From positions 10,097 to 74,096 of IMG/VR virus record IMGVR_UViG_3300032304_000721: 64,000 bases of DNA; one strand, given 5' to 3'. The DNA is from a virus. How positions within the stretch are numbered: the stretch's first letter is position 1; every line of letters begins with the position of its first letter. Positions 4,340 to 56,671 of the stretch are shown here, piece after piece. Below the pieces are notes generated by a model. That model was not told where the DNA came from, did not search any database, and was given only the letters and a program-made list of their open reading frames with translations. Made by a program: the position numbers and the translations under genes.

Positions 4340-5367
4340 TTCAGTTCCTTTATTTGTAGTTGTGCGTAGTCTGCATCTCGCCAATGATACGGGTATTCTG
4401 CTCGGTGCAGACTGGTACGTACAGCAGTCACATTTAATCTAGTATTTAATAGCGCCCAAATCCGTCTATAATCTTCTGTGCCAAATGTGCGAATCAAGTC
4501 AACTTGTGCTATTTGAGGGTGTCCTATAGTAAGGCTTTTGTCGTCTGGGTCAAATCCGTTCGCAGTCAACCAAGTTCTAAACTCTGCTAACTGTCGTCGT
4601 TGCCACTCGTATGCTCCGGGATTGTTGGCCCACTCTATGTCAAAGTCTGCACAGGCCAAGGTCTGCGTGGCCAAACTAGTTGTGGTCAGTTCACCTATTC
4701 TGCTGTCACGTCCTTCATCGCAGAACACTTCCCAATGATGTTTGCCCACTGCTTTGTTAACACCCACATACACACCACCCAGACTTCTATTAATAGTGTC
4801 TATGCCAAACAGCTTATAATCTTCTGTGTCCAACTCAAACCTTGGCGCATTTAACCAGCACATGAGTTGGCTGGGACGCATCCATTCTGGAGCAGTTTCC
4901 AGCTTGCGTTTGCTCAGTTGCCATGATTCAAACTCATGACACAAGAGATTCAACTGACGTATGTGCCAGCGTGTGTACGGGTCAGCAGCTGTATAGTAAG
5001 GGCTAGGTGCGTGTGCAGTGCCCTGTAGATCTTCAAAGTATCTGTGCAACAGGTTAAATTCTGCATGGTCAACACCACCGGCTGCTGTGACACTGCGTTG
5101 CATGGTAAAGGTATGATCTATTCGGTAGTCTATTGCACTGGCATTGACGGCAGCTATGCTGGAGTTGATGGCAGCTATCAAGTAGTCACCTGTGCGTGGA
5201 CCTTCGGCCCAGCCCAACCAGCAGTAGTTCTTTTCCAAGTGTAGACCCTGCTCTATTACACCATTTAAAGCGGTCAACCATTTTCTACTAAGACTGTTGT
5301 CCACCACATCAATGTACACAGTCAAGTCTGTCAAGTCTAGTTCTACAGTATCAAGCAATGCCATCAT
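4336..5367 (-). CDS. Hypothetical protein
   Basis: 343-aa ORF overlapping both neighbours in the operon; no recognised motif. Confidence 0.7.
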   Translation of the reverse strand: MMALLDTVELDLTDLTVYIDVVDNSLSRKWLTALNGVIEQGLHLEKNYCWLGWAEGPRTGDYLIAAINSSIAAVNASAIDYRIDHTFTMQRSVTAAGGVDHAEFNLLHRYFEDLQGTAHAPSPYYTAADPYTRWHIRQLNLLCHEFESWQLSKRKLETAPEWMRPSQLMCWLNAPRFELDTEDYKLFGIDTINRSLGGVYVGVNKAVGKHHWEVFCDEGRDSRIGELTTTSLATQTLACADFDIEWANNPGAYEWQRRQLAEFRTWLTANGFDPDDKSLTIGHPQIAQVDLIRTFGTEDYRRIWALLNTRLNVTAVRTSLHRAEYPYHWRDADYAQLQIKELK

Positions 5368-50262: not shown

Positions 50263-52012
50263 AAACCTTACTGTAAAAAACTTCATGAGTGTGGGCAATA
50301 GCACACAGGCCATTGATTTTAATCGACAGGATCTTACCCTGGTGTTGGGAGAGAATCTGGATCTGGGCGGTGATGGCAGCCGTAACGGCACAGGCAAGAC
50401 CACAATCATCAATGCTCTTAGCTACAGTCTATATGGACAAGCACTTAGTAATATCCGCAAGGATAATCTTGTAAACAAAACCAACAATAAAAACATGTTG
50501 GTCAGTTTAGATTTCAGTGTGGGCGGTAAAGATTACAAAATTGAGCGTGGTCGTAAACCTAACTTGCTAAGATTCTTTGTAAACAATCAAGAACAAGTGG
50601 TCACAGACGAAGCACAAGGTGACAGCAGAGAAACACAGGATGCAATTGAGCAAACTCTAGGCCTGAGTCACGACATGTTCAAACACATACTAGCACTTAA
50701 TACTTACACAGAACCTTTCCTAAGTCTTAAAGCAAACGATCAGCGTACCATTATCGAGCAGTTGTTGGGCATTACCATGCTGAGTGAGCGTGCCGACCGA
50801 ATCAAAGAGCATAATAAAGCTACCAAAGAAGGCATCACACAAGAAGAATTTAGAATTCGTGCTGTTCAAGAAGCTAACAAACGTATTGAAGAACAGATTG
50901 AATCATTAAAGCGTAGACAAACATTATGGACCACCAAACATGGCGAAGATATCACGGAACTTGAGAAAGCCCTTAAGGCGTTACAGAATATACAGATTGA
51001 AAACGAGATTGCGGCGCACCAAGATCACAAGGCGTGGGATCAAAAAAGAAAGGATATCAATGAACTATCTGGTCAGATCTCAAGAATCAAATTGGATATT
51101 AATCGGGAAGAAAAGCTGGCGGCCAAATTATCAAAAGAAATCGAAACGCTTGAGAATCATGAATGTCATACGTGTGGGCAGGCCTTCCACGACAGTAAGC
51201 ACGAACAAGTTTTGGAAAGCAAAAAGACGGAGTTGGCTACAGCTCGACAGAGTGGCACGGAATATAGCACCCTCTTATCAGAATTGGAGACTGCCCACAC
51301 AGACTTGGGCACGCTAGGAAAACCGCCCACAATGTTTTACGATAAAGAGTCGGATGCTATACAACATCAAGCCACTTTGTCTAATTTAGAACAACAAATC
51401 TCTACCAAACAAATAGAAACAGATCCATATGCAGAACAGATTACAGAAATGCAACAACAAGCCTTACAGGAGGTAACATATGACACACTTAATGAGCTTA
51501 CTAGGTTGCAAGAACATCAAGAATTCTTGCTCAAACTACTCACCAGCAAAGACAGCTTTATCCGTAAAAAGATTATTGAACAAAATCTTAGCTATCTAAA
51601 TGCTCGACTCACACACTACTTGGATCGTGTGGGCTTGCCGCACACTGTGGTATTCCAAAATGACTTGACTGTCAGCATTGAAGAGCTGGGACGTGAGTTA
51701 GACTTTGATAATTTGAGCCGCGGTGAGCGTAATCGTTTAATTCTTTCTATGAGCTGGGCATTTCGTGATGTGTTTGAAAGTTTATATCAACCTATTAACT
51801 TGTTGTTTATAGACGAGATGATTGACAATGGATTGGATACGCAAGGTGTAGAAAATGCCCTAGCTTTGCTCAAACACATGAGTCGTGAACAACACAAGAG
51901 TATTTGGCTAGTAAGTCATAGAGACGAACTTGCTGGGCGTGTAGAAAATATTCTCAAGGTCATCAAAGAAGGTGGATTTACAAGTTACAATACGGATGTA
52001 GATATTGTTTAA
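50249..52012 (+). CDS. gp46: Recombination ATPase subunit, gp46 (Rad50/SbcC-like)
   Basis: Walker A NGTGKTT, zinc hook CHTC, signature LSRGE, Walker B LFIDE, H-loop LVSH. Confidence 0.95.
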   Translation: MIQIKNLTVKNFMSVGNSTQAIDFNRQDLTLVLGENLDLGGDGSRNGTGKTTIINALSYSLYGQALSNIRKDNLVNKTNNKNMLVSLDFSVGGKDYKIERGRKPNLLRFFVNNQEQVVTDEAQGDSRETQDAIEQTLGLSHDMFKHILALNTYTEPFLSLKANDQRTIIEQLLGITMLSERADRIKEHNKATKEGITQEEFRIRAVQEANKRIEEQIESLKRRQTLWTTKHGEDITELEKALKALQNIQIENEIAAHQDHKAWDQKRKDINELSGQISRIKLDINREEKLAAKLSKEIETLENHECHTCGQAFHDSKHEQVLESKKTELATARQSGTEYSTLLSELETAHTDLGTLGKPPTMFYDKESDAIQHQATLSNLEQQISTKQIETDPYAEQITEMQQQALQEVTYDTLNELTRLQEHQEFLLKLLTSKDSFIRKKIIEQNLSYLNARLTHYLDRVGLPHTVVFQNDLTVSIEELGRELDFDNLSRGERNRLILSMSWAFRDVFESLYQPINLLFIDEMIDNGLDTQGVENALALLKHMSREQHKSIWLVSHRDELAGRVENILKVIKEGGFTSYNTDVDIV

Positions 52013-52970
52013 TTATCGTATAGTACACCTCGAAATTAGTAGTAAATGTGTGCTAAAGTGTCCACGGTGCCCTCGAACAGAATTAAATTTAGATCGATTA
52101 AACCAAGAGATAACACTTGCAGATTTTAAATCTGGATTTCCTGTAGATGTATTATCTCAAATTGAATATTTTATATTTTGTGGGGATATTGGCGATCCTA
52201 TATATGCTACAGAATTTTTAGAAATTATTGAATATGTCAAACAGCATGGCCAAACTCGCATAAAAATCATAACCAATGGCAGTTATAAAAAAGCCGATTG
52301 GTGGCAAAGATTAGGACAGCTATTAGACCATAACGATCTAGTAACATTTAGTGTCGATGGGTGGGACAATGAATCCAATAATCGATATCGAGTTAATAGT
52401 GATTTTGAAAGTATCATACTAGGCATCAACACTTTACGAGCATCAAGTGAGTGCCTGATACAATGGTCAGCAATATATTTTGCATTCAACCAACATAAAA
52501 TTAGCAACATGCAAGAATTTGCAAAATCGTTAGGATGTAATCAGTTTCAAACCGTTAAAAGTTCAAAATTTGATGGCAGATATATGTTAGGCAATGTTGA
52601 TCCATTGAAACCTGCTAGTCAACTGGTTGCCTCTACCCTGGTCTACGAAACCAATATAGAGATATTAAATTCTAGTAAATACATATCTATTGTTCCAGCA
52701 ACACCTGTTTACCCACACCAATGGGCCAAGTGTTTAAATTATAAAAAAGAGTTGTTTATTGGAGTTGATGGGGTCGTAGCACCTTGTCCTTGGTTTAACA
52801 ACAGTTATCAAGACAATAGTTTTATAAAAACATATCGCAATTGTTTGTCAATTAAAAATCGATCATTCTTTGAAATACTTAATGATGTTGAGTTGTGGAA
52901 TCAACTAGTAACAAGTTTTGATACTGATCCTTTAGAAATTTGTCAACTAAAATGTAAAAATGCCCAATAG
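52005..52970 (+). CDS. Radical SAM protein with C-terminal SPASM/twitch-like domain
   Basis: CVLKCPRC, GDIGDP, TNGS; C-terminal KC...DGVVAPC...CQLKC. Confidence 0.9.
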   Translation: MFNYRIVHLEISSKCVLKCPRCPRTELNLDRLNQEITLADFKSGFPVDVLSQIEYFIFCGDIGDPIYATEFLEIIEYVKQHGQTRIKIITNGSYKKADWWQRLGQLLDHNDLVTFSVDGWDNESNNRYRVNSDFESIILGINTLRASSECLIQWSAIYFAFNQHKISNMQEFAKSLGCNQFQTVKSSKFDGRYMLGNVDPLKPASQLVASTLVYETNIEILNSSKYISIVPATPVYPHQWAKCLNYKKELFIGVDGVVAPCPWFNNSYQDNSFIKTYRNCLSIKNRSFFEILNDVELWNQLVTSFDTDPLEICQLKCKNAQ

Positions 52971-54273
52971 TAAAATATTTTGTAATATTCCTTGGTTTGA
53001 AATAAACATTAATCATGATGGTAGTTATGATTTATGTGGCTGTCAGAATGATAAAATTGTTGGTACCAAGCAAGGACAAATTTATAATATTAAAAAAATT
53101 CCAATAAAAGAATATTGGAACGGCCCTCGACTACAAGAAGCACGGTTAAGAAAATTAGGCGACACACCAGATTCTATGTGCAAGATGTGTCAACAAAAAG
53201 AATCTATTGGGTATGAAAGTAATAGAATAAAAGAAAATCTTAAATCTGTAATTTTTAAAGAATCGTTTGATCGTAGTTTTCAACAAAGTCCAAATTATCA
53301 ACATTTTGAATATAGCAAAAACAACAACGGTCTTACTAATTCTCATATACACAGCTTACACGTAAATCTTGGCAATACGTGTAACTTTGCTTGCCGCATG
53401 TGTAGTCCGTTTGCTAGTACCCGACTACAAACTGAATTTTTGCAATTAGGATGGATGCAACTCGAAGACAAGTTTACGCATTGGGCCGAGACTGATGCAG
53501 GGTGGACTAATTTTTTAAATTTCTTAGAACACCAAGCTCAAAACATTAAAGTTATACATATCATTGGCGGCGAAGTTGAGTTCATGCCCAAATTTGAATT
53601 TCTAATAGATTACTTTATTCAGCGTGGTCTGGCAGCCACTGTTAACATTAGTTTCACTTCTAATGGCAGTGTAAACTACTCAAAATATTTTGAAAAATTA
53701 AGTCAATATAAAAAATGCGAAATTGGAATTAGTATTGAAAGTGTTGATCCCATCGGCGACTATATTAGACAAGGTGGCGATATCAAAAGTATATTAAAAA
53801 ATATACAAACTATGAACCAGAATAAGCACAACAACATGCAGTTAATCATTAGAACTGTTCCTAGTTTATTAAGTCTACCATCTTATGTCAATTTAATAAA
53901 ATGGGCATTAGACATGAAATTACCTATAGATAATAGTGTGTTGGTTAGCCCGGCATGGCAACAGGCTATTCTGTTGCCCAATAATATTAAAACAAAAATT
54001 ATTAGCAGTATATCAAAAATGCTCACTGAGTTGCCAGCAGCGGATAATAAATTTAATAATCAAAAAGATCCAAATAATATTACTGTTAGTATTCGTAACG
54101 AATGTGAAAGTATTATACGGCTAGCTCAACAACTTGCACCGCCCGATGCTGATGTACTTCGCCGTCAATGCGCAGAAAAACTAAGTCAATGGGATCAAAT
54201 GAAACAAATTAGTATTCAAGCATATTCTCAGGATCTTTATAATTTTTTATTAGAGTTTGGGTACCATGCGTGA
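52960..54273 (+). CDS. Radical SAM protein with N-terminal SPASM/twitch-like domain
   Basis: CNFACRMC, IIGGE; N-terminal CNIPW...LCGC...CKMC. Confidence 0.9.
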   Translation: MPNSKIFCNIPWFEININHDGSYDLCGCQNDKIVGTKQGQIYNIKKIPIKEYWNGPRLQEARLRKLGDTPDSMCKMCQQKESIGYESNRIKENLKSVIFKESFDRSFQQSPNYQHFEYSKNNNGLTNSHIHSLHVNLGNTCNFACRMCSPFASTRLQTEFLQLGWMQLEDKFTHWAETDAGWTNFLNFLEHQAQNIKVIHIIGGEVEFMPKFEFLIDYFIQRGLAATVNISFTSNGSVNYSKYFEKLSQYKKCEIGISIESVDPIGDYIRQGGDIKSILKNIQTMNQNKHNNMQLIIRTVPSLLSLPSYVNLIKWALDMKLPIDNSVLVSPAWQQAILLPNNIKTKIISSISKMLTELPAADNKFNNQKDPNNITVSIRNECESIIRLAQQLAPPDADVLRRQCAEKLSQWDQMKQISIQAYSQDLYNFLLEFGYHA

Positions 54274-54764: not shown

Positions 54765-55193
54765 ATGGTATGGCTGTATGAAAACACTCAAATTGAAACA
54801 TTACCCGATGACTGTGTCGGCTTTGTGTATCTAATCACAAACAATGTAACAGGCAAAAAATATATTGGTAAAAAATTAGCAAAGTTTAGCAAGACAACAT
54901 ACAAAGTAGTAAAATTAAAGAACGGCAACAAAAAACGTAAACGAATTAAGAGCAAAATAGATTCAGACTGGCAGCTATACTATGGAAGCAACGATCAACT
55001 CAACCGAGACATTCAGGCGCTGGGCGCCGACAACTTCACAAGAGAAATATTATTTTATTGCACATCAAAGGCAGCTTGCAGTTACATAGAAGCTAGAGAA
55101 CAATTTAATCATAGAGTATTAGAGTCAGATGACTACTACAACGGGCAGATAGTTTGCCGTATACATGGTAGTCACATAAAAAACAAAATTTAA
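54765..55193 (+). CDS. Short GIY-YIG endonuclease
   Basis: GFVYLITN...KYIGKK, YYGS, REIL, E and YYN; catalytic domain only. Confidence 0.88.
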   Translation: MVWLYENTQIETLPDDCVGFVYLITNNVTGKKYIGKKLAKFSKTTYKVVKLKNGNKKRKRIKSKIDSDWQLYYGSNDQLNRDIQALGADNFTREILFYCTSKAACSYIEAREQFNHRVLESDDYYNGQIVCRIHGSHIKNKI

Positions 55194-55199
55194 AATTTA

Positions 55200-55612
55200 G
55201 ATAGGCAGCTTTACTGACTCTGTGCTAGGCGATATGGCCTAGCCCCATCGAAGAACGGTGCAATACCCGGTCTGGAAAACTTTGGGCGTCAAAGGCAATT
55301 GCTAACTTAAGGCAACAAATGGTTTGAGCTCTGTAGAAAAAGATACAACTCATGCTTATAGGACTTGGATTTATTATTGGGTCACTAGGGTTCCGTTGAT
55401 ATGTGAAGCTAGAGTAGGGGGTACCGGTCAACCGCCTCCGTGTCGTAAGACAATCTCTTTATAATAAATGACTGCTGTCACTCGGATAATGTGAAAAGAG
55501 TCAATTCACCGTGCATACGGTGAATTGTGACCACATAATCTGGATAATGCGTAAGAAAAACAATGTGTCTGAGCTCTAGCGAAAGACACAGATTAGCGTA
55601 GCTAATCTTTAA
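55200..55612 (+). ncRNA. Candidate structured ncRNA (or structured DNA origin), family unknown
   Basis: About ten hairpins, including an 11-bp perfect stem (55502-55527) and a GTAA tetraloop (55441-55452), plus a 9-bp long-range helix (55369-77/55461-69), in the only long non-coding gap of the window. Confidence 0.55.
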
Positions 55613-55619
55613 ACATCAC

Positions 55620-55955
55620 TCAGAATGTATCGGGCCAGTCCCGAAATAGGGCATGCTGTATGTCTCCAGCAACAAACTGATTGAAGCTTTTGTGCTTGAC
55701 TTCAAGCTCTCCTTCTAACGGAGCAACACGTTTAAATGCTGAATCCATTTGTCCCATGTCTGTGAACTCCATTAGTATCATCCACTCGGGCATATCGGCA
55801 ATGCTTCGGAATCCCATTTTGCAACGAGTGATTCTATATGATTCCATTTTGCCTTCAACGATTAAATGATCAAAGAAACTTTTCATTCCGTTTACCCAGT
55901 CTAAGTCTGAGATGTCACCTTCTTTGTTTGCCCATATTGTGTATAAGTCTGCCAT
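55620..55955 (-). CDS. Small dimeric alpha/beta-barrel-like protein (DUF6614-like)
   Basis: YRITRCKMGF...PEWMILMEF...ALFRDWPD; AAGGA RBS. Confidence 0.6.
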   Translation of the reverse strand: MADLYTIWANKEGDISDLDWVNGMKSFFDHLIVEGKMESYRITRCKMGFRSIADMPEWMILMEFTDMGQMDSAFKRVAPLEGELEVKHKSFNQFVAGDIQHALFRDWPDTF

Positions 55956-55993
55956 TATTTTTTCCTTGAGTGGTAAAGTACATACATAATTAT

Positions 55994-56671
55994 ATGAAAA
56001 TTCAGTTCAGTCATAATTTTGGTCATCAAGAACAAGGTGAATGTTTTCACTTTGGGTGTAATCTAGTTGATGTTGCTCCAGAGGAATATGACACAGCTCT
56101 AGCCATGGGATTTTTACTCACAGTTGATCAAGGACAAGCACGTTGGTATCAAAGCCGCAGCTGTCGTGTGCGCACAGCTGGCACTGATTATGATCTGATT
56201 GAATCGGCACAAGTTATGAGCCGACCCTTGCCTGTGGCAGAAATGGATCACATCTACACTGCCTACTGCTACTATAAAAAGTTTAAAAAATATTTTGAAG
56301 TTGGTGAACATTTGCCTTTGGATCAGTTCATGGCCTATTACAACGACAACAAAGAAATGGTAGCTTGGGCGAAACTCAGGCACTATACTCCAAGATCAAT
56401 CGAAACAGCCTTGTTTGTGTGGGACTACAGCGTGCCTGCTAGTAGGTTAGGAAGTTGTAGTTTAGAACACGAAATTGCTTGGGCCAAACAAGCTGGCTAT
56501 GAATTTGTTTATCTAGGACCCGGGTACGAGCGCAGCAGTTTGTACAAAGCAGACATACAAGGATTTGAGTGGTGGGACGGAATAGAGTGGAATACTGACA
56601 CTGATCAATACCGTCAACTATGCCGACGTGATAGTAAGATTAAATCTGTCGCGGATCTTTACGATGTTTGA
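55994..56671 (+). CDS. Aminoacyl-tRNA-protein transferase-like (ATE/Bpt C-terminal GNAT domain)
   Basis: RLGSCSLEHEIAWAKQAGYEFVYLG...YK...FE matches the ATE_C/Bpt pattern; ATG at 55994 preferred over GTG at 55970. Confidence 0.7.
   Translation: MKIQFSHNFGHQEQGECFHFGCNLVDVAPEEYDTALAMGFLLTVDQGQARWYQSRSCRVRTAGTDYDLIESAQVMSRPLPVAEMDHIYTAYCYYKKFKKYFEVGEHLPLDQFMAYYNDNKEMVAWAKLRHYTPRSIETALFVWDYSVPASRLGSCSLEHEIAWAKQAGYEFVYLGPGYERSSLYKADIQGFEWWDGIEWNTDTDQYRQLCRRDSKIKSVADLYDV

What the first reader, a model, noticed from the sequence alone, without database searches (positions are those of the whole stretch)
54765..55612. Minimal GIY-YIG nuclease followed immediately by a ~410-nt ornate structured element: candidate nuclease-ncRNA system
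Seen: the only long non-coding gap in the window starts right after the nuclease stop and is packed with helices. Local stems: GCTAGGC/GCCTAGC (55224-43), CATCG/CGGTG (55246-60), CTTTG/CAAAG (55280-94), TTGCT/GGCAA (55299-315), TGAG..TGTA/TACA..CTCA (55325-52), CAATTCACCGT/ACGGTGAATTG (55502-27), TGTGTCT/AGACACA (55564-90), AGATTAGC/GCTAATCT (55590-608). A long-range ATTTATTAT/ATAATAAAT helix (55369-77/55461-69) encloses GGGGG..CGG-TCAA-CCG-CCTCC and a GTAA tetraloop hairpin. TGACTCT/AGAGTCA (55215-21/55497-503) may also pair, and GGATAATG occurs twice. G-U pairs and the GNRA loop favour a plus-strand RNA. The 142-aa nuclease has a very basic insertion (KVVKLKNGNKKRKRIKSK) and no separate DNA-binding domain. 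Inference: a large ncRNA of a family I do not recognise that may partner with, guide or regulate the nuclease.
Basis: partly seen in the sequence, partly recalled or inferred. Interest (0 to 1): 0.85.

Follow-up and report, generated by a model that had tools for sequence, protein, structure and literature searches.

The report
Twin-box structured RNA behind phage nuclease
The gene-free 426 bases behind a small nuclease gene of this uncultured T4-like lake phage encode a real, intricately folded non-coding RNA that carries one 7-letter word twice, always changing in step; it is an uncatalogued variant of the little-studied Polynucleobacter-1 RNA, its job is unknown, and nothing shows that it guides the nuclease.

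Summary
Window 55194-55619 is non-coding and is a plus-strand structured RNA. On 21 relatives, 85 proposed pairs are 91.5% paired (about 40% when slid), and 39 show changes on both sides. It has no Rfam hit. Its 3' half is homologous to RNAs whose 5' 140 nt are Rfam RF01718, Polynucleobacter-1. That makes it a front-end variant of a known orphan family. This scan had already found the same RNA on other genomes.

The nuclease link is mostly synteny. The order is gp46, accessory genes, GIY-YIG, RNA, then convergent baseplate-hub genes. Of 92 RNA-selected loci with upstream sequence, 78 have the GIY-YIG gene (9 of them with other genes in between), 8 have an unrelated PD-(D/E)XK nuclease, and 6 have neither. 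GIY-YIG homologues in cultured cyanophages have no such RNA. No nuclease residue tracks the RNA's variable word.

The most unusual feature is two 7-nt words (55484-90 and 55542-48). They are identical in 106 of 109 RNAs across 16 haplotypes and flipped together in 13/13, 12/12 and 9/9 independent contrasts. Function is unknown. My best guess is a trans-acting scaffold with two identical recognition sites.

The parts
54765..55193 (+). 142-aa GIY-YIG nuclease gene, catalytic domain only (Pfam SegE_GIY-YIG, phrog_447, cyanophage 'T4-GC 213'). It is the upstream neighbour of the RNA.
   Evidence: Pfam E 7.6e-33 over the whole profile. phrog_447 E 4.8e-37. Y, Y-I-G, R93, E109 and N126 are invariant. 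38% identical to PSSM2_218.
55194..55223 (+). 5' leader of the RNA with a conserved TAGAYAGGCARC-like motif (55198-55209). The motif is kept even where another gene, not GIY-YIG, lies upstream.
   Evidence: Alignment A1 and upstream flanks of 20 loci. No conserved sigma-70 promoter was found; the promoter scan is at chance level.
55224..55243 (+). Hairpin H1 (GCTAGGC/GCCTAGC). The sequence varies and the pairing is kept.
   Evidence: 5 of 7 pairs change on both sides.
55244..55286 (+). Helix H2 (CCCA/TGGG) enclosing hairpin H3 (GAACGG/CCGGTC).
   Evidence: H2 is 100% paired with 2 pairs changed on both sides. H3 has 4 of 6 pairs changed on both sides.
55299..55315 (+). Hairpin H5 (TTGCT-AACTTAA-GGCAA).
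   Evidence: 93% paired, 1 pair changed on both sides.
55321..55356 (+). Hairpin H6/H7 (GGT.TGAG...TGT / ACA...CTCA.GCT) with a GAAAAAGATAC loop.
   Evidence: 99% and 98% paired, 5 pairs changed on both sides, invariant G-U pairs.
55369..55469 (+). Central domain closed by the long-range helix H8 (55369-77 with 55461-69). It contains a near-invariant 33-nt segment (55378-55410), helix H10 (AGAG/CTCT, 55411-14/55455-58), the universally conserved hairpin H11 (GGGGG-TAC-CGG-TCAA-CCG-CCTCC, 55417-39) and hairpin H12 (GTC-GTAA-GAC, 55442-51).
   Evidence: H8 is 97% paired with 3 pairs changed on both sides. H10 has an A-U/U-A swap of 14:7. H11 has GC/AU at 13:8. H12 has 8 double changes. H10 and H11 also covary across both family branches.
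55480..55491 (+). Box 1: ACTC plus the word GGATAAT(G). The word lies at 55484-55490.
   Evidence: Identical to box 2 in 106 of 109 RNAs across 16 haplotypes. Mutual information with box 2 is about 1 bit, close to the entropy.
55500..55531 (+). Hairpin H14 between the boxes (GTCA-ATTCACCGT / ACGGTGAAT-TG-TGAC).
   Evidence: Across branches it changes to TTTGCCC/GGGCAAA, with 5 of 9 pairs changed on both sides.
55538..55549 (+). Box 2: ATCT plus the word GGATAAT(G). The word lies at 55542-55548.
55564..55590 (+). Hairpin H15 (TGTGTCT / AGACACA) with an inner GC-N4-GC helix flanked by GA/GAAA. By eye this looks like a tandem-GA, kink-turn-like internal loop.
   Evidence: 5 of 7 plus 2 of 2 pairs change on both sides, and 6 of 6 plus 2 of 2 across branches. 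The kink-turn reading is inference only.
55591..55610 (+). Terminal hairpin H16 (GATTAGC-GTA-GCTAATC) plus TTT. It is the probable 3' end or terminator, at the point where transcription converges.
   Evidence: 5 of 7 pairs change on both sides and 6 of 7 across branches. With only 3 T it is not called as a plus-strand terminator by the scan.
55620..55955 (-). Convergent DUF6614 gene. It is a variable accessory neighbour and not part of the RNA.
   Evidence: Pfam E 1.2e-19. It is absent from most related loci, where the gp51-like and gp26-like genes follow the RNA directly.

Best explanation
Window 55194-55610 is a gene for a plus-strand, multi-domain structured non-coding RNA of about 415 nt.

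It belongs to a family common in uncultured freshwater T4-like phages. Earlier reports of this scan call it the 'twin-box RNA'. The family shares a 3' domain made of a central hairpin cluster, two identical 7-nt words flanking a hairpin, a GA-rich hairpin and a terminal hairpin. It has at least two alternative 5' domains. One is the catalogued Polynucleobacter-1 motif (RF01718). The window has the other, uncatalogued one.

The RNA is the last element of the rightward DNA-metabolism transcription unit (gp46 ... nuclease gene). It probably comes from read-through transcripts, because no conserved promoter of its own is visible. It ends at the hairpin where leftward baseplate-hub transcription converges.

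Inferred, not shown: the folded RNA acts in trans as a scaffold. It presents two equivalent recognition sites (GUGAC-N6-AYYY plus a 7-nt word) to a partner that is dimeric or present in two copies. The partner's specificity differs between phage lineages, so both words must change together.

The GIY-YIG nuclease gene is a conserved neighbour, not a demonstrated partner.
For: Structure:
- 85 pairs are 91.5% paired, against 39-44% for slid controls. 39 pairs change on both sides, and 0 of 500 shuffles reach the observed values.
- The shared 3' domain across both branches has 36 pairs, 24 changed on both sides, 89% paired against 41-50%.

Strand: there are invariant G-U pairs and GC-to-GU changes.

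Non-coding: stops occur in all frames, and the minus-strand ORF is not conserved.

Family:
- nhmmer finds the 3' half behind 66 of 80 GIY-YIG loci.
- A core pattern retrieves about 100 more RNA loci.
- RF01718 scores 83-118 bits on the 5' domain of relatives but does not hit the window.

Position: the RNA sits at the operon end in a conserved gene order and stays there when other genes are inserted upstream.

Twin words:
- Identical in 106 of 109 RNAs, with 16 haplotypes including all 8 combinations of the three main variable positions.
- Mutual information is about 1 bit, against at most 0.4 for any other column.
- Independent contrasts give 13/13, 12/12 and 9/9 co-flips.
- No cis complement co-varies.

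Phage-specific: only 4 exact core matches in 185,579 prokaryote species genomes, all on MAG contigs of one study.

Weak expression hint: contigs from metatranscriptome libraries of four studies cover the nuclease gene and the RNA, and two bridge the stop codon.
Against: - No experiment or raw-read mapping shows the transcript, its ends or its abundance. RNA-library contigs can derive from DNA.
- The trans-acting, two-site-partner mechanism is inference. No partner was identified.
- The words could instead be under an 'identity-only' constraint such as realignment or templating.
- 85% of RNA loci do have the GIY-YIG gene upstream, so a functional tie cannot be excluded.
- The tree behind the independent contrasts is a FastTree of recombining phage DNA. 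A recombination tract covering both boxes, which lie 58 nt apart, would move them together.
Confidence: 0.6

Rival explanations
1. Nuclease-RNA ribonucleoprotein. The RNA binds the DNA-binding-domain-less GIY-YIG enzyme, or the PD-(D/E)XK enzyme that replaces it. It supplies target recognition or regulation, with the twin words acting as a programmable address.
For: - The RNA directly follows a nuclease gene in 76 of 92 RNA-selected loci, and a nuclease gene lies upstream in 86 of 92.
- Two unrelated nuclease families occupy the same slot.
- The GIY-YIG protein is catalytic domain only and its catalytic residues are intact.
- The words vary like a short address, with all 8 combinations of the three variable positions.
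Against: - Gene order is conserved throughout the clade, so adjacency is not independent evidence.
- 9 loci have 1-1.8 kb of other genes between the nuclease gene and the RNA, and 6 loci have no such nuclease upstream.
- The same small GIY-YIG family exists in Melnitz, P-HM1 and P-SSM2 phages with no RNA downstream. Those homologues also have the basic insertion.
- Both nucleases occur with both RNA front ends and with the same word types.
- No GIY-YIG residue tracks the word: maximum mutual information 0.2-0.33 bit against about 1 bit between the boxes.
- The own word or its complement is not enriched in 0.8 Mb of flanks, and ATTATCC is absent from the 64-kb window.
- A 7-nt word is too short for a conventional guide.
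Confidence: 0.1
2. Cis-acting 3' element of the operon. The RNA would be a long structured 3' UTR that stabilises the upstream mRNA against 3' exonucleases. It could also insulate or terminate convergent transcription at the module boundary, with no trans function.
For: - The RNA is always the last element before the convergence point, whatever gene precedes it.
- No conserved own promoter is visible.
- It ends in a covarying hairpin.
- RNA-library contigs bridge the stop codon.
Against: - A terminator or stabiliser needs one hairpin, not 330-500 nt with a near-invariant 60-nt core, long-range helices and exchangeable 5' domains.
- The identity constraint on two 7-nt words has no role in this model.
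- The RNA also occurs in four loci with quite different surroundings (L099, L111, L142, L164).
Confidence: 0.15
3. Identity-only mechanism. The two words must match each other rather than a partner, because a polymerase or ribosome leaves one word and re-pairs at the other. Comparable cases are template realignment in telomerase RNA or DRT-type RT ncRNAs, and matched take-off and landing codons in translational bypassing.
For: - The words are direct repeats flanking a stable hairpin, 47-60 nt apart. They are identical while their sequence drifts freely.
- No complementary third site exists in cis.
- 104 of 106 words read as NNN followed by U-R-A, which looks like a codon plus a stop codon, as at the T4 gene 60 take-off site (haplotypes; the resemblance is my own knowledge).
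Against: - No reverse transcriptase or other candidate polymerase gene was seen beside the RNA in the neighbourhoods I annotated.
- No reading frame leads into box 1 consistently. The AUG-to-box distance differs by 1 nt between close relatives, and the Polynucleobacter-1-type relatives have no AUG there.
- If a ribosome landed on box 2, it would meet the same stop-like triplet.
Confidence: 0.07
4. DNA-level element. The region would be a replication origin or protein-binding site, with the two words as iterons and the inverted repeats as DNA hairpins. This is the alternative noted on this window as e1-6101164.
For: - Directly repeated words that co-evolve are typical of iterons read by one protein.
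- The site is a module boundary.
- The terminal hairpin closes with GC-GTA-GC.
Against: - Covariation keeps G-U pairs that would be A-C mismatches on the other strand. It extends over 15 helices, including long-range ones, and this points to a single-stranded plus-strand RNA.
- There are only two word copies, and no further copy of the 8-mer anywhere in 64 kb.
Confidence: 0.04

Closest known systems
Polynucleobacter-1 RNA motif (Rfam RF01718; Weinberg et al. 2010, Genome Biol 11:R31, PMC2864571)
   Same: - The habitat and carriers are the same: fresh water, phage-like contigs.
- The position is the same: downstream of homologues of cyanophage gene PSSM2_218, which is this GIY-YIG family.
- RNAs that carry RF01718 as their first 140 nt share the window RNA's whole 3' domain: core hairpin, twin words, GA hairpin and terminal hairpin.
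   Different: - The window RNA's own 5' 210 nt do not match RF01718 even at E <= 10.
- The Rfam model covers only 141 nt and none of the shared 3' domain, so the twin words and the full 330-500-nt RNA are not catalogued.
- In the paper library I searched, the motif appears only in the 2010 survey, in a table and one supplementary paragraph, and was tentatively classed as cis-regulatory.
Large ornate phage-associated RNAs of unknown function (GOLLD, ROOL)
   Same: They are large, multi-domain, highly conserved non-coding RNAs carried by phages or prophages, found by comparative genomics, with no known function (my own knowledge, plus the abstract listed).
   Different: There is no sequence or structure match to any Rfam model of these families. 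The window RNA is smaller, at about 415 nt. It also has the twin-word feature and a fixed place in T4-like genomes.
Nuclease-associated guide RNAs (TnpB/IscB omega RNAs, HEARO)
   Same: They are structured RNAs encoded directly next to a small nuclease gene.
   Different: - The nuclease families differ: GIY-YIG or PD-(D/E)XK here, not RuvC/HNH.
- There are no transposon ends.
- There is no 16-20-nt variable guide at an RNA end. The only variable single-stranded segments are two internal 7-nt words.
- There is no Rfam HEARO or omega RNA match.
- The RNA occurs without the nuclease and the nuclease without the RNA.
Seg-type free-standing GIY-YIG homing endonucleases of T4 (SegA-G)
   Same: The catalytic domain matches Pfam SegE_GIY-YIG over its full length. 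The gene sits between conserved genes at a module boundary.
   Different: - There is no C-terminal DNA-binding domain: the protein is 142 aa, and the Pfam catalytic-domain match covers residues 3-129.
- It is not sporadic. It is present at the same place in 85% of related loci at 68-95% identity.
- It belongs to the widespread small family phrog_447 / T4-GC 213.

Membership tests
Polynucleobacter-1 RNA (Rfam RF01718) | Match to the RF01718 covariance model at or above its gathering score (37 bits). | tested here: not met
   There is no RF01718 hit in the window at the gathering threshold or at E <= 10 on 55100-55700. Nine relatives score 39-118 bits.
Polynucleobacter-1 RNA (Rfam RF01718) | Lies downstream of a GOS11034 / PSSM2_218-like gene (Weinberg 2010 supplement). 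| tested here: met
   The window's GIY-YIG protein is 38% identical to PSSM2_218 (E 8e-20). The supplement text was read.
Twin-box phage RNA family (informal; the shared 3' domain) | Conserved core hairpin G(R)GGUAC-CGG-N4-CCG-CCUC(Y) closed by a covarying 4-bp helix. | tested here: met
   Present at window 55411-55458. It is conserved and covarying across 23 RNAs of both branches.
Twin-box phage RNA family (informal; the shared 3' domain) | Two identical 7-nt words, 47-60 nt apart, flanking a hairpin. | tested here: met
   GGATAAT occurs at 55484 and 55542. The words are identical in 106 of 109 family members.
Twin-box phage RNA family (informal; the shared 3' domain) | Sequence homology of the 3' half to Polynucleobacter-1-type RNAs. 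| tested here: met
   An nhmmer profile built from window-type RNAs hits profile positions about 213-425 in the divergent loci, several of them confirmed as RF01718-type, at E 1e-8 to 1e-23.
RNA-guided nuclease systems (TnpB/IscB-type) | A variable guide segment of about 16 nt or more at one end of a conserved scaffold. | tested here: not met
   The variable parts are paired hairpin stems or the two internal 7-nt words. No terminal variable single strand is seen.
RNA-guided nuclease systems (TnpB/IscB-type) | Obligate co-occurrence of the nuclease and the RNA. | tested here: not met
   Of 92 RNA loci, 6 have neither nuclease upstream and 8 have a different nuclease. GIY-YIG homologues in Melnitz, P-HM1 and P-SSM2 have no RNA downstream.
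RNA-guided nuclease systems (TnpB/IscB-type) | RNA-dependent, sequence-programmed cleavage. | not testable with these tools
   This needs biochemistry.
Free-standing GIY-YIG homing endonuclease (Seg type) | GIY-YIG catalytic domain with conserved Tyr, Tyr, Arg, Glu and Asn. | tested here: met
   Pfam E 7.6e-33. Y22, Y33-I34-G35, R93, E109 and N126 are invariant.
Free-standing GIY-YIG homing endonuclease (Seg type) | A separate C-terminal DNA-binding domain. | tested here: not met
   The protein has 142 aa, and the catalytic-domain profile covers residues 3-129. All 80 retrieved relatives match over essentially the full length, query residues to 134-142.
Free-standing GIY-YIG homing endonuclease (Seg type) | Sporadic presence or absence among close relatives. 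| tested here: not met
   The gene is present at the same position in 78 of 92 RNA-selected loci, in a conserved gene order.

The most novel reading that the evidence does not exclude
The twin words are a re-programmable short address. Three variable positions give all 8 combinations, always written twice. Through this address the RNA would base-pair with two copies of a nucleic-acid target, or with a two-fold symmetric one. This would be a new kind of phage RNA-directed recognition system, possibly delivering the neighbouring GIY-YIG or PD-(D/E)XK nuclease, or discriminating self from competing phages.
Probability: 0.1. Interest if true: 0.85.

Novelty: new variant of a known kind. Interest (0 to 1): 0.55.

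Why it matters
Large, highly conserved structured RNAs with no known function are rare. In the past they have led to new biochemistry.

It is absent from cultured phages. Rfam represents it only by a 141-nt fragment of one branch.

Two identical words that have co-flipped many times are an unusually clean signature of a specific two-site interaction or a realignment mechanism. This gives a direct experimental handle: mutate one box, or both.

For annotation, it shows that RF01718 is the front end of a much larger RNA, and that a second front end exists which current models miss.

This is a repeat sighting within the scan, not a first discovery.

Tried and rejected
- **Rfam:** no hit for the window at gathering and at E <= 10. 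The three weak hits are chance.
- **tRNA/tmRNA scan:** none found.
- **blastn 'distant' against 50,697 GenBank phage records:** no match for the 2.5-kb region.
- **Single-sequence folding:** z-scores are weak and do not separate the strands.
- **Protein-coding reading of the gap:** rejected.
- **Cis partner for the words:** the best complements have 9 of 11 pairs with many G-U and do not co-vary. No third column has mutual information above 0.4.
- **Own word or its complement in the flanks:** 84 against 72 and 54 against 48 expected from other words, so no enrichment.
- **GIY-YIG residues against the word:** no signal.
- **Sigma-70 promoter scan:** at chance level. The plus-strand terminal hairpin was not called as a terminator.
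- **Prokaryote genome scan with the 23-nt core:** 4 hits, all MAG contigs of one study. They are probably binned phage DNA, but I did not check this further.
- **RNA libraries:** contigs only. The runs showed no cover over the variable flanking genes, so nothing can be said about relative expression or transcript ends.
- **Alignment tools:** MAFFT Q-INS-i was not installed. The E-INS-i alignment of all 117 RNAs is gappy and was used only for the mutual-information analysis and an overview.
- **Not run:** a covariance model of the full RNA (too long for the calibration limit), the protein structure and complex tools (they would not change the verdict), and a test of the pseudoknots reported by earlier notes. 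The hairpin AGGACTTG/TTGGGTCA around the H8 5' strand is only 62% paired in my alignment.
Full report
**1. What is at the coordinates**

The window is a fragment of an uncultured T4-like myophage. It is an IMG/VR record of 74 kb with a completeness estimate of 21%.

The 142-aa ORF 54765-55193 matches Pfam SegE_GIY-YIG over the whole profile (E 7.6e-33). It also matches PHROG 447.

The next gene is DUF6614 (55620-55955), which converges on the minus strand. The 426 nt between them are the only gap above 150 nt between ORFs of at least 80 aa in the window.

All six frames of the gap carry stops. A 68-codon minus-strand ORF (55225-55431, TTG start) is frameshifted or cut short in about half of the close relatives. 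It is therefore not a gene.

**2. Is it a structured RNA?**

Folding the single sequence gives only weak z-scores: -1.8 on the plus strand and -2.3 on the minus strand. The case rests on comparison.

- blastn found the gap sequence at 70-93% identity behind the gene in 28 of those loci.
- An alignment of 21 copies (A1) gave an RNAalifold structure with 24 of 76 pairs compensated.
- I then wrote a structure of 15 helices (85 pairs) from the covariation pattern and counted it.
  - 91.5% of cells are paired, against 39-44% when the 3' partners are slid.
  - 39 pairs have changes on both sides.
  - The covariation score is 0.279, against 0.115 in shuffles, and 0 of 500 shuffles reach it.

Three do not: CATCG/CGGTG, CTTTG/CAAAG and TGACTCT/AGAGTCA. 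The first two are replaced by the covarying CCCA/TGGG and GAACGG/CCGGTC helices.

Invariant G-U pairs and GC-to-GU changes put the RNA on the plus strand.

**3. How wide is the family, and is it known?**

A sequence profile of A1 found only its 3' half (profile positions about 213-425) behind the GIY-YIG gene in most of the remaining loci, 66 of 80 in all. There is therefore a shared 3' domain with different 5' parts.

After I had noted the two co-varying repeats, I looked up the scan's earlier notes. Seven follow-ups on other genomes describe the same 'twin-box' RNA and name Polynucleobacter-1 (RF01718) as the closest known motif. I tested that claim.

- RF01718 hits the first 140 nt or so after the nuclease gene in L022, L065, L031, L095, L075, L060, L038, L117 and L166, at 39-118 bits against a threshold of 37.
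- It does not hit the window, even at E <= 10.
- A cross-branch alignment of the shared 3' domain (23 RNAs, A3) supports its helices: 36 pairs, 24 changed on both sides, 89% paired against 41-50% when slid.

The window RNA is therefore a second, uncatalogued front-end variant of a family of which Rfam knows only a 141-nt piece.

The only text on that motif in the paper library I searched is the 2010 survey. Its supplement says the motif lies mostly downstream of genes resembling PSSM2_218 of cyanophage P-SSM2, and that it was found in no purified phage. PSSM2_218 is a homologue of the window's GIY-YIG protein (38% identity, E 8e-20). The gene-RNA neighbourhood was thus noted in 2010 for the other branch.

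**4. Is the nuclease a partner?**

*Gene order.* The order is conserved across the clade: gp46 (Rad50-like), optional radical-SAM and other genes, GIY-YIG, RNA, then on the other strand optional DUF6614/ATE-like/p170 genes and the gp51-like and gp26-like hub genes. Adjacency therefore largely reflects shared descent.

*Counts in the RNA-selected set,* which is not biased towards the nuclease. Of 92 loci with enough upstream sequence:

| Upstream of the RNA | Loci |
|---|---|
| GIY-YIG gene directly upstream | 69 |
| GIY-YIG gene with 1-1.8 kb of ordinary accessory genes in between | 9 |
| Unrelated PD-(D/E)XK nuclease, Pfam PDDEXK_15 | 8 |
| Neither | 6 |

*Further points against a partnership:*
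- GIY-YIG and PDDEXK_15 never co-occur in these loci.
- Each is found with both RNA front ends.
- The small GIY-YIG family is widespread in cultured cyanophages and relatives (239 GenBank phage records). In Melnitz, P-HM1 and P-SSM2 a protein gene follows it and no such RNA is present.
- No GIY-YIG alignment column tracks the RNA's variable word. The maximum mutual information is 0.2-0.33 bit at hypervariable columns, against about 1 bit between the boxes.

Two nuclease families in the same slot is a curious fact. It is the best remaining argument for a functional tie. It is equally explained by non-orthologous replacement of a recombination or repair nuclease in the gp46/47 module.

**5. The twin words**

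The repeated 'GGATAATG' is part of two extended direct repeats (GUGAC-N6-AYYY-word) that flank hairpin H14.

- Across the family the 7-nt words are identical within each RNA, in 106 of 109, while differing between RNAs.
- There are 16 haplotypes, including all eight combinations of R at position 1, R at position 5 and W at position 7.
- Mutual information between equivalent positions equals their entropy (1.06, 1.05 and 0.96 bit). No other column exceeds 0.4.
- I built a tree with the words masked. Phylogenetically independent contrasts on supported branches show the second box following the first in 13 of 13, 12 of 12 and 9 of 9 cases (p from 2e-4 to 4e-3). At least 16-26 changes per position are needed on the tree.

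Caveat: recombination tracts spanning both boxes would inflate these counts. Even so, the absence of mixed pairs still requires selection for identity.

The words are not complementary to each other. No covarying complement exists in the RNA. Neither the word nor its complement is enriched in 0.8 Mb of flanking phage DNA, and ATTATCC does not occur in the 64-kb window.

Nearly all words (104 of 106) read NNN followed by U-R-A, which looks like a codon plus a stop codon. No reading frame leads into box 1 consistently. I record this pattern as unexplained.

**6. Expression**

No conserved promoter precedes the RNA. A short AGGCA-containing motif at its 5' edge is conserved whatever gene lies upstream.

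Contigs from metatranscriptome libraries of four studies, at 80-99% likeness, cover the nuclease gene and parts of the RNA. Two of them bridge the stop codon. This agrees with co-transcription, but contigs cannot prove transcription.

**7. Reading**

*Shown:* a real, plus-strand, multi-domain RNA gene. It belongs to a large phage-specific family, sits at a fixed operon-terminal position, and carries two words under a strong identity constraint.

*Inferred:* it works in trans as a scaffold offering two equivalent recognition sites to a dimeric or duplicated partner whose specificity varies between lineages.

*Less likely:*
- a nuclease RNP or guide (about 0.1);
- a purely cis-acting 3' UTR or terminator module (about 0.15);
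- an identity-only realignment mechanism (about 0.07);
- a DNA-level origin (about 0.04).

**8. Novelty and score**

This is a new variant of a known kind. The family is represented in Rfam by one partial model and was re-found several times by this scan. The window adds an uncatalogued 5' domain.

A specialist in RNA would find the twin-word signature surprising and experimentally tractable. Interest: 0.55.

Noticed in passing
L120:2614-3126 (+), L108:3893-4423 (-), and also L117, L135, L137, L166, L167, L197: In GIY-YIG-less relatives, the gene in the slot upstream of the RNA is a protein of about 170 aa from Pfam PDDEXK_15 ('phage putative PDDEXK endonuclease', PHROG 'RusA-like Holliday junction resolvase'). 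It never co-occurs with the GIY-YIG gene in these loci. This suggests non-orthologous replacement of one small nuclease by another.
   Followed up: partly
window 55484-55490 and 55542-55548, and family-wide: 104 of 106 twin words read NNN followed by U-R-A (for example GGA-UAA, AGA-UGA, GCA-UAA), like a sense codon followed by a stop codon. The two copies flank a hairpin 47-60 nt apart, which recalls take-off and landing sites of translational bypassing. No consistent reading frame leads into them.
   Followed up: partly
window 55198-55209; L024 about 4430-4450: A short motif, TAGAYAGGCARC (variants TAAGGCAT and CAGGCAAC), marks the 5' edge of the RNA whatever gene lies upstream. It is duplicated in L024. 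It could be a processing site or an unconventional promoter element.
   Followed up: no
window 55970-56671 (+): A 233-aa protein has a weak match to the C-terminal domain of arginine-tRNA-protein transferase (ATE_C, E 5e-6). In relatives the homologous gene is found in either orientation, or is missing.
   Followed up: no
window 52005-54273 (+): Two adjacent radical-SAM/SPASM genes (321 and 437 aa) are inserted between gp46 and the nuclease gene. They are present in only some relatives.
   Followed up: no
L203, L204 (Haliscomenobacter MAG contigs of 148 and 183 kb); L202, L205 (Flavobacteriales and Flavobacterium MAG contigs): The only exact core matches in 185,579 prokaryote species genomes lie on MAG contigs from one study. 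Two of the contigs have the size of T4-like phage genomes, so these are probably phage contigs binned into bacterial MAGs. No RF01718 hit was found on them.
   Followed up: partly
L099, L111, L142/L164: Copies of the RNA occur outside the usual gp46...gp26 setting. One lies after a MazG-like gene (L099), one after a tail-fibre-like gene (L111), and one in another context (L142/L164, where only the 5' part matches the profile).
   Followed up: partly
window 55225-55431 (-): A 68-codon minus-strand ORF lies inside the RNA gene. It could be mis-annotated as a hypothetical protein, but it is frameshifted or truncated in about half of the close relatives.
   Followed up: yes
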